From a virus, in the IMG/VR virus record IMGVR_UViG_3300032093_000021, positions 76,165-140,164 of that record: a stretch of 64,000 bases of DNA; one strand, written 5' to 3'. Position 1 is the first letter of the stretch. Every line of letters starts with the position of its first letter. The position numbers and the translations under genes are program-made. This document shows positions 61,151-61,304 of this stretch, one piece after another. Below the pieces are notes generated by a model. The model saw only the letters and a list, made by a program, of their open reading frames with translations. It was not told the DNA's origin and searched no databases.

Positions 61151-61304
61151 ATCAATTATGGGACAACAACAATACGATCCAATTCCCTCTGGCGCTTTAT
61201 AGGCGCCAGAGGCCTTTCGGCCCGAAGGGATAAGACACTAGCTCGTTCATCCCTACCCTTGGTAGGGGGGACGAAAAAAATAACATCATTATCCCATAAT
61301 TGAT
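61151..61304 (-). ncRNA. Putative multibranch structured RNA (about 154 nt)
   Basis: 13-bp perfect terminal IR ATCAATTATGGGA/TCCCATAATTGAT, extended by G-U pairs on the minus strand. Internal hairpins: CCCTACC/GGTAGGG, GGCC-GAAA-GGCC, TCTGGCGC/GCGCCAGA. GC-rich relative to the genome. Confidence 0.65.

What the first reader, a model, noticed from the sequence alone, without database searches (positions are those of the whole stretch)
61151..61304. 154-nt multibranch RNA-like element with GNRA tetraloop between the paralogs
Seen on the minus (sense) strand: a closing helix of 13 Watson-Crick pairs extended by about 11 more pairs rich in G-U (taatgatg with tgttgttg), which would be mismatches on the other strand and so indicate strand. 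Inside are a (TCGT..)CCCTACC-aag-GGTAGGG(..ACGA) arm and a TCCC/GGGA-closed junction holding GGCC-GAAA-GGCC and TCTGGCGC-ctataaa-GCGCCAGA. An alternative cUUCGg loop overlaps it. The element ends 13 nt before the next ATG. G-U bias, a GNRA loop and high GC in an AT-rich genome suggest selection on RNA structure.
Basis: partly seen in the sequence, partly recalled or inferred. Interest (0 to 1): 0.72.

Follow-up and report, generated by a model that had tools for sequence, protein, structure and literature searches.

The report
Conserved structured RNA between phage paralogs
A 154-nt GC-rich stretch between two duplicated virion genes of an uncultivated large phage is a real, evolutionarily conserved folded RNA of a family not in Rfam; it always follows this one gene family, and what it does is still inferred, not shown.

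Summary
Window 61151-61304 (minus strand) folds into a 20-bp closing helix plus GC-rich arms (-70.6 kcal/mol, z -7.8).

The same element sits in the same place in every related metagenomic locus fetched. Covariation is clear: score 0.427 against 0.196 shuffled, 0 of 500 shuffles as high.

The structure belongs to the sense strand. It is more stable there in 20 of 20 elements, G·U outnumbers A·C 38 to 7 in the closing helices, and GNRA/UNCG loops occur 7 times on sense and never on antisense.

A second element after paralog 2 (60135-60246, three 32-nt units) is homologous to it, and each covariance model finds the other type. More distant phages carry one copy after the single homologous gene, including a 52-kb genome rated 98% complete.

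The element is not scattered, matches no Rfam family, and has no U-tract. A canonical terminator elsewhere in the same gene string looks quite different.

Best reading (about 0.45): a cis-acting intercistronic mRNA structure that protects or processes the upstream cistron. That it is a functional RNA structure at all: about 0.85-0.9. No transcript data could be obtained.

Rivals are a protein-binding operator, a terminator derivative, a trans-acting RNA and an ssDNA site.

The scan had noted both elements before, on this same window only.

The parts
61151..61304 (-). Element A: 154-nt multibranch RNA in the intercistronic space after paralog 1
   Evidence: MFE -70.6 kcal/mol, z -7.8. Conserved with covariation in L002, L005, L007, L008, L009, L010, L018, L019. 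Model R2 scores it 131 bits.
61285..61304 (-). P1, 5' strand of the closing helix (13 Watson-Crick pairs, then 7 pairs of which 4 are G·U)
   Evidence: Fold. P1 is 98.6% paired across 9 sequences, and 6 of its 16 aligned pairs change on both sides. The GGG:CCC clamp is invariant in 17 distinct sense rows.
61151..61170 (-). P1, 3' strand; ends 13 nt before the ATG of paralog 2
61247..61274 (-). Arm 2: CCCC...GGGA-clamped hairpin (contains CCCTACC-aag-GGTAGGG)
   Evidence: Fold. The helix at alignment columns 31-37/70-76 is 84% paired, with 2 pairs changed on both sides.
61184..61230 (-). Arm 3: UCCC/GGGA-closed inner three-way junction holding hairpin 1 (GGCC-GAAA-GGCC, 61210-61223) and the directly abutting hairpin 2 (61189-61209)
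   Evidence: The same junction folds independently in window, L002, L005, L007 and L019, although both hairpins in L019 have entirely different sequences.
60135..60246 (-). Element B: homologous 112-nt three-way junction after paralog 2. It is built of three 32-nt units with conserved CCC-UUAU-GGGG junctions
   Evidence: Tandem repeat family D13. Fold z -5.2. Covariation 0.250 against 0.114 shuffled, 0/500. R2 (the type A model) scores it 60.5 bits, and R1 (the type B model) scores A 28.7 bits, E 2e-4.
61315..62160 (-). Paralog 1 (281 aa), the gene whose stop codon lies 10 nt upstream of element A
   Evidence: ORF. 56% identical to paralog 2. AF2 model pLDDT 77.5, FN3/Ig-like beta-sandwich with only generic matches, best Z 5.8. 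Homologues.
60256..61137 (-). Paralog 2 (293 aa from the ATG at 61137), followed by element B

Best explanation
Element A is a cis-acting structured segment of a late polycistronic mRNA, read from the minus strand. So are its homologue B and their relatives in other phages.

It fills the intercistronic space after one particular virion-module gene. A long closing helix P1 (16-35 bp, with an invariant GGG:CCC clamp and an adjacent U·G wobble) encloses two or three GC-rich hairpins capped by stable tetraloops.

The most likely role is as a stability and processing determinant. It would be a roadblock to 3'-to-5' exonucleases, and a double-stranded substrate of about 20 bp for an RNase III-type endonuclease. 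Either action would uncouple the upstream cistron from the ones downstream and set their relative yields. Meanwhile P1 holds the stop codon and the next A-rich, Shine-Dalgarno-less start region only about 25-35 nt apart.

Shown here: the fold, its conservation, covariation, strand specificity, gene linkage, single-locus distribution and lack of terminator features.

Inferred, not shown: that it is transcribed, and that it acts through stabilisation or processing.
For: Structure:
- z -7.8.
- Elements A and B are the top GC-corrected structure outliers in the 140-kb contig.

Conservation and covariation:
- The element is present at the same position in all related loci that carry the tandem paralogs.
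- The type A alignment has covariation 0.427 against 0.196 shuffled (0/500) and 0.06-0.10 slid.
- Type B has 0.250 against 0.114 (0/500).
- In a model-guided alignment of 17 distinct sense rows, P1 positions show up to six pair types, with WC 419, G·U 64, A·C 9.
- The inner junction is rebuilt from different sequences in five lineages.

Sense-strand RNA:
- The sense fold is more stable in 20/20 elements, mean difference -11.7 kcal/mol.
- G·U to A·C is 38:7 in the closing helices, and GNRA/UNCG tetraloops number 7 on sense and 0 on antisense.

Inside an operon, not at its end:
- The other gaps in this gene string are 4-14 nt.
- Only 13 and 18 nt separate elements A and B from the next start codons, which leaves no room for a promoter.

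Not a terminator here:
- There is no U-tract after either element.
- A canonical GC hairpin followed by T8 stands at about 62930-62967 in the same gene string.

Linked to the upstream gene:
- The downstream gene varies (paralog 2, a 141-aa protein, a third paralog in L009, a 1007-aa protein in L012), while the upstream gene family is constant.
- The type B model finds one copy after the homologue in a 40-kb phage and in a 52-kb phage rated 98% complete.

Dispensable in nature, as expected of a modulator:
- L002 lacks most of element B.
- L015 has only a weak structure at this position.

Helix length:
- P1 is at least about 20 bp in the window, which is long enough for RNase III by established knowledge of that enzyme (the length is).
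Against: - No transcript, 5'/3'-end or cleavage data could be obtained.
- Other presumably abundant structural genes on the contig have no comparable element. A generic stabiliser does not explain the tie to one gene family.
- P1 and the loops carry conserved primary sequence: UA-N-GGG / CCC-N-UA, the UUAU loops of element B, and a UA in each junction strand. A pure roadblock would not need these; they hint at a sequence-specific partner.
- No phage RNase III gene lies on the 47%-complete contig, so a host enzyme would have to act.
- The covariation rests on about 5-8 independent lineages, and one of the alignments was fitted to the model.
Confidence: 0.45

Rival explanations
1. The RNA is a protein-binding operator or ribonucleoprotein partner. 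It would be the specific binding site of the adjacent FN3-like protein, which carries a basic loop, or of another phage protein. Binding would give autoregulation, or control translation of the next cistron, whose start lies 13-22 nt from P1.
For: The element co-inherits with one gene family across phages of 40 kb, 52 kb and about 300 kb, and each paralog has its own version. Primary sequence is conserved in the clamp, in the adjacent wobble, in the UUAU loops and in the junction UA. Both A and B are pseudo-threefold: three arms with the same clamp (L010). The protein family has partly conserved basic residues around R90, R104 and K121.
Against: The fold of the protein is a generic beta-sandwich with no RNA-binding relative. 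There is no binding test of any kind. The interiors are replaced wholesale between lineages. L002 lacks element B, and L015 has only a weak structure after its homologue.
Confidence: 0.2
2. The element is an elaborate transcription terminator or attenuator, or a recent derivative of one, marking the 3' end of a gene cassette.
For: In the distant single-copy relatives, P1 is followed directly by a T-run: L012 has TTTTTT and L016 has TTTTT. Its position right after a stop codon is typical of terminators.
Against: Elements A and B in the window, and all close relatives, are followed by A-rich leaders with no U-tract. The terminator scan finds nothing at the base of either closing helix; its one hit in this spacer is an inner hairpin of element B. 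The downstream genes start 13-22 nt later, leaving no room for a promoter, in a string whose other gaps are 4-14 nt. This phage's evident terminator is a short GC hairpin followed by T8.
Confidence: 0.12
3. The element is a stand-alone small RNA. It would be excised from the operon transcript at P1 and act in trans, as a regulatory or decoy RNA.
For: It is a compact, very stable, self-contained fold with a long terminal helix that could be clipped by a double-strand-specific nuclease. 3'-UTR-derived small RNAs are an established class (review PMC9438474, listed).
Against: No conserved single-stranded seed exists, since the interiors differ completely between lineages. No Rfam family matches. 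There are no expression data.
Confidence: 0.1
4. The element works at the DNA level. It could be a strand-specific single-stranded DNA structure, such as an attC-like recombination site or a priming or packaging signal, or a mobile palindrome that travels with the gene.
For: The layout is a gene followed by an imperfect palindrome with conserved ends and a variable centre, repeated per cassette. That resembles integron cassettes. The gene-plus-element unit occurs in very different phages. The ends of the G003 record overlap exactly at the element.
Against: It is single-locus in every genome searched. No tyrosine recombinase is on the contig, though the contig is only 47% complete. P1 shows no attC core sites by direct reading. 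The asymmetry always follows the direction of transcription, and the loops are RNA-type GNRA/UUCG. Synteny is stable among close relatives.
Confidence: 0.06

Closest known systems
RNase III processing hairpins between phage T7 genes (R0.3, R1.1 and others), and the lambda sib retroregulator
   Same: They are intercistronic or 3'-flanking, read from the sense strand of a phage polycistronic mRNA. They are long imperfect double helices of about two turns. In T7 they leave the upstream message with a protective 3' hairpin. This comparison rests on established knowledge, not on a test made here.
   Different: The T7 sites are single irregular hairpins of about 60 nt. This element is a 110-160-nt multibranch structure. 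It is tied to one gene family rather than spread along the genome. Cleavage is untested, and there is no sequence or Rfam similarity.
REP/BIME-type intercistronic stem-loops that stabilise upstream mRNA segments in bacterial operons (for example malE-malF)
   Same: A GC-rich structure inside an operon, downstream of a stop codon, thought to block 3' exonucleases and give differential expression.
   Different: REP elements are short, multi-copy and dispersed. This element is single-locus, much larger, and shows covariation rather than sequence identity.
Integron attC sites
   Same: Each follows its own gene, has conserved inverted ends and a variable centre of 57-141 nt, and is strand-asymmetric and structure-conserved.
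   Different: attC acts as single-stranded DNA with an IntI integrase and has RYYYAAC/GTTRRRY cores. No integrase was found on the contig, no such cores are seen, the loops are RNA-type, and the gene order is stable.
Type III toxin-antitoxin RNA repeats (ToxI-like)
   Same: Element B is a tandem array of three units of about 32 nt, transcribed ahead of a small gene.
   Different: The units differ from each other and covary with their neighbours to form one three-way junction. The downstream gene is not constant: it is a third paralog in L009. It has no toxin-family match.
Unnamed candidate structured RNAs predicted in IMG/VR (PMC10690425)
   Same: Same kind of object and the same source data: covarying intergenic motifs in uncultivated phages.
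   Different: That catalogue gives no names or functions in its text, and no supplements are held. Whether this family is listed there could not be checked.

Membership tests
Any Rfam 15 family (includes hammerhead, twister, HDV-like and other self-cleaving ribozymes, riboswitches and phage motifs) | Score at or above the family's gathering threshold | tested here: not met
   There were 0 hits over the 64-kb window at gathering thresholds. The permissive scan of 60900-61600 gave only noise, best E 0.17 and all far below gathering.
Intrinsic (Rho-independent) terminator | GC-rich hairpin immediately followed by a U-tract | tested here: not met
   Elements A and B are followed by AAAAAAC... and AAAAAAATT.... 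The terminator scan reports nothing at the base of either closing helix; its one hit in this spacer is an inner hairpin of element B. A true GC hairpin followed by T8 lies at about 62930-62967. Distant relatives L012 and L016 do have T-runs, so an ancestral terminator cannot be excluded.
RNase III processing site | Double-stranded helix of about 20 bp or more | tested here: met
   P1 has 20 contiguous pairs in the window and 16-35 in relatives.
RNase III processing site | Cleavage by RNase III in vitro or in vivo | not testable with these tools
   No RNA-end data were available. No phage-encoded RNase III lies on the contig.
MITE / dispersed palindromic repeat | Many copies scattered regardless of gene context | tested here: not met
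   One BLAST copy in 140 kb. The core motif occurs at chance frequency. The covariance models find only A and B in the own contig, and one locus per related genome.
Integron attC | Integron integrase nearby, and R''/R' core sites (RYYYAAC ... GTTRRRY) at the ends | tested here: not met
   No PF00589 match on the contig, which is only 47% complete. The P1 ends read ATCAATTATGGG / CCCATAATTGAT, with no such cores.
Type III antitoxin RNA array | Near-identical tandem repeats followed by a cognate endoribonuclease toxin gene | tested here: not met
   The units share only the CCCUUAUGGGG junction and a central UA, and their variable blocks covary as stems. The downstream gene varies and has no toxin-family match.
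tRNA / tmRNA-like | Cloverleaf recognised by ARAGORN | tested here: not met
   0 genes in the window.
Protein-coding or stop-codon read-through extension | Conserved open frame after the stop codon | tested here: not met
   The frame is open in the window and L002 but with different residues. It is interrupted in L007, L010 and element B. Element lengths differ by non-multiples of 3.

The most novel reading that the evidence does not exclude
The element is the dedicated RNA partner of the gene it follows. It would be a pseudo-threefold three-way-junction RNA, with three arms sharing the same GGG:CCC-plus-wobble clamp. The adjacent basic-loop, FN3-like virion protein would bind it, possibly as a trimer. 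The pair would act as an assembly-coupled translational switch or as a true phage ribonucleoprotein, and the RNA and the protein would duplicate and move between phages together.
Probability: 0.12. Interest if true: 0.8.

Novelty: new variant of a known kind. Interest (0 to 1): 0.5.

Why it matters
Structured intercistronic RNAs are a known way for phages to tune late-gene dosage. Almost all studied cases come from a few model phages of Proteobacteria and Firmicutes.

This one is a well-supported, unclassified RNA family in uncultivated freshwater phages. Their A-rich leaders without a Shine-Dalgarno sequence suggest a Bacteroidota-type host, which is an inference.

Its unusual features are these:
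- It is large and multibranch.
- It is built from repeated clamp-and-hairpin modules.
- It was duplicated together with its gene.
- It has stayed attached to the same gene family in phages of very different size (about 40 kb, 52 kb and about 300 kb).

If it proves to be a stabiliser or processing site, it gives a portable expression-control module for AT-rich hosts. If it proves to be a partner of the adjacent protein, it would be a rare example of a phage structural-module ribonucleoprotein.

Tried and rejected
- **Collection scans with the termini.** Exact-pattern scans with the type A and type B termini in viral and metagenome contigs found nothing. The first two type A scans used a gap that was too short. 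Even the corrected ones failed to recover JGI contigs I already held (L002, L005), so these negatives say nothing about rarity.
- **First protein-based locus search.** It found no relative in viral contigs. The search with an alignment found four.
- **Scan for two spaced CCCTTATGGGG copies.** In bacterial genomes and viral contigs it returned 11 unrelated tandem repeats of other architecture and context. These are not relatives.
- **Identity of the flanking protein.** Pfam and PHROGs gave nothing useful. Foldseek against PDB and BFVD, VIA-align wide and the ESM Atlas gave only generic FN3/Ig-like similarity.
- **Read-through extension.** Rejected.
- **Mini-ORFs starting at the AUG of UUAUGGG.** Their lengths are not conserved between relatives, read directly. 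Rejected.
- **dsDNA iterons.** The 32-bp period is about three helical turns, but the variable blocks covary as stems and the mismatches are strand-biased. Rejected.
- **TATAAATA as a late-promoter motif.** It is only weakly enriched (18 found, 11.4 expected), so no promoter claim is made.
- **Literature.** Searches found no description of this element.
- **Complex prediction.** Not run, because no protein-protein claim is made.

Full report
**What is there.**
The window is the last 64 kb of a 140-kb IMG/VR virus contig of 32% GC, estimated 47% complete.

Read on the minus strand, 61151-61304 lies between two tandem paralogs. These are 61315-62160 (281 aa) and 60256-61137 (293 aa), 56% identical. 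The element starts 10 nt after the first stop codon and ends 13 nt before the next ATG.

The only correction is that the G·U-rich extension of the closing helix adds 7 pairs, not about 11, for a 20-bp helix P1.

The fold is -70.6 kcal/mol against -40.6 +/- 3.9 for shuffles (z -7.8). In a sliding scan of the whole contig, this element and a second one at 60135-60246 are the strongest GC-corrected outliers.

**A second, homologous element.**
After paralog 2 lies element B. It has three exact 32-nt units inside a closing helix GATGATTTATGGG / CCCTTAAATCATC that resembles P1 of element A.

It folds as a three-way junction in which the conserved CCC-UUAU-GGGG junctions between units form two hairpins. 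The variable blocks of neighbouring units pair with each other.

The two types are homologous. The type A model scores B at 60.5 bits (E 9e-13), and the type B model scores A at 28.7 bits (E 2e-4).

Type A can be read the same way: three arms, each clamped by GGG(A/G):(U)CCC with an adjacent wobble pair. In L010 the three units are still visible as repeats.

**Conservation and covariation.**
The paralog family has homologues only in metagenome assemblies. Every locus fetched that carries the tandem pair has element A between the paralogs, and all but L002 also have element B after the second one.

The closing helix changes sequence but keeps pairing. ATCAATTAT/ATAATTGAT becomes GTCATTAAT/ATTAATGAC and ATGACTTAT/ATAAGTCAT.

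| Measure | Type A (9 sequences) | Type B (7 sequences) |
|---|---|---|
| Cells paired | 91.4% | 91.2% |
| Covariation score | 0.427 | 0.250 |
| Shuffled control | 0.196 (0/500 as high) | 0.114 (0/500 as high) |
| Partners slid | 0.06-0.10 | 0.03-0.10 |

P1 of type A is 98.6% paired, and six of its pairs change on both sides.

The inner junction is a UCCC/GGGA clamp, a tetraloop hairpin and an abutting second hairpin. It folds identically in five lineages, although in L019 both hairpins are made of different sequence.

In a model-guided alignment of 17 distinct sense rows spanning A, B and distant relatives, P1 positions show up to six pair types, and the GGG:CCC clamp is invariant. That alignment is fitted to the model, which favours pairing. 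The number of independent lineages is only about 5-8.

**RNA, and which strand.**
- The sense strand folds more stably in 20 of 20 elements, by 11.7 kcal/mol on average.
- In ungapped closing helices, G·U outnumbers A·C 38 to 7. In the model-guided alignment the ratio is 64 to 9.
- GNRA or UNCG tetraloops (GAAA, GUAA, UUCG) cap hairpins 7 times on the sense strand and never on the antisense.

A symmetric double-stranded DNA site would show none of these biases.

**Not scattered, not a known family.**
- The element is single-copy by BLAST.
- Its core motif occurs at chance frequency.
- Both covariance models find only A and B in the 140 kb.
- In a 40-kb relative (the two hits are one element in a 192-nt end overlap) and in a 52-kb relative rated 98% complete, the type B model finds a single locus directly after the homologous gene.
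- Neither model gives a significant hit in the complete 310-kb relative. There the structure after the gene is more diverged but has the same AATTATGGG...CCCATAATT closing core.
- Rfam gives nothing, and ARAGORN gives nothing.

**Context and what it excludes.**
The element lies inside a tightly packed string of virion genes: DUF7936, a 129-aa protein, paralog 1, paralog 2, a 141-aa protein, a phrog_1645 virion protein and a DUF1353 chaperone-like protein.

The other gaps in this string are 4-14 nt, so A and B are the only spacers. The string is headed by a 130-nt gap holding a canonical terminator, a GC hairpin followed by T8, and then AT-rich DNA.

By contrast, A and B are followed by A-rich leaders without a U-tract, and there is no room for a promoter. 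A full terminator is therefore unlikely here. However, distant single-copy relatives do have a T-run after P1, so descent from a terminator is possible.

A read-through extension is excluded. No RNase III gene and no tyrosine recombinase gene lies on the contig.

**The linked gene.**
The upstream gene family is constant while the downstream gene varies. The element therefore belongs to the 3' side of that gene.

The protein models as an FN3/Ig-like beta-sandwich with insertions (pLDDT 77.5). No informative structural or family match was found, best Z 5.8.

Natural variants suggest the element modulates rather than being essential. L002 lacks most of element B, and L015 has only a weak structure.

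**Verdict.**
That this is a functional sense-strand RNA structure is well supported; I put it at about 0.85-0.9.

Its mechanism is inferred. I favour an intercistronic stability and processing element: an exonuclease roadblock, or an RNase III-type site in the 20-bp P1, that sets the relative yields of the paralogs and the downstream genes. I put that at about 0.45.

The conserved clamp, wobble, loop and junction nucleotides, and the strict tie to one gene family, are not explained by a pure roadblock. They keep a protein-binding operator or ribonucleoprotein reading alive, at about 0.2 for the broad version and 0.12 for the specific partnership with the adjacent protein.

No transcript data could be obtained.

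Noticed in passing
window 62930-62967 (minus strand), within the gap 62887-63016: A canonical intrinsic terminator (GGGCGGCG...CGCCGCC followed by T8), and then an AT-rich stretch containing TATAAATA just upstream of the DUF7936 gene. It probably marks the end of one late transcription unit and the start of the one that holds elements A and B. The simple terminator scan missed it because the loop is 12 nt.
   Followed up: partly
L002:2372-2419 compared with L003:1974-2112: Two near-identical relatives differ by a clean loss of about 91 nt of element B in L002 (GATG joined to CACTCCC). They also have different downstream genes (466 aa and 555 aa). It is either a natural deletion variant or an assembly collapse.
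   Followed up: partly
L009:213-3055: This relative carries three tandem paralogs (286 aa, 291 aa and at least 265 aa), with a type A element after the first and a type B element after the second. The contig ends inside the third.
   Followed up: no
L016:3273-3464 and L036:1-192 (record G003): The two ends of this 40-kb viral record overlap by 192 nt with one mismatch. The record starts 3 nt before the closing helix of its element. It is a circular or terminally redundant genome, or an assembly break at the palindrome.
   Followed up: partly
L016:3283-3400: In this distant relative the interior of the element is two tandem 32-nt units, each a hairpin. The period is the same as in element B of the window, although the sequences are unrelated.
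   Followed up: no
L022-L032: Tandem repeats of 26-47 nt containing CCCTTATGGGG occur in unrelated bacteria, phages and a giant-virus MAG. Several (L026, L027, L030) share a TTAAGGG...CCCTTATGGGG hairpin unit. They are probably unrelated to this family.
   Followed up: partly
window 16237-16450: This is the lowest-energy 150-nt window of the contig. It is a GC-rich (about 60%) coding repeat with a 24-nt period (CACCTCCGGGTGGAGGGGGAGC...), not an RNA element.
   Followed up: no
collection scans: The metagenome contigs pattern scan did not return JGI contigs that demonstrably contain the pattern (L002, L005).
   Followed up: no
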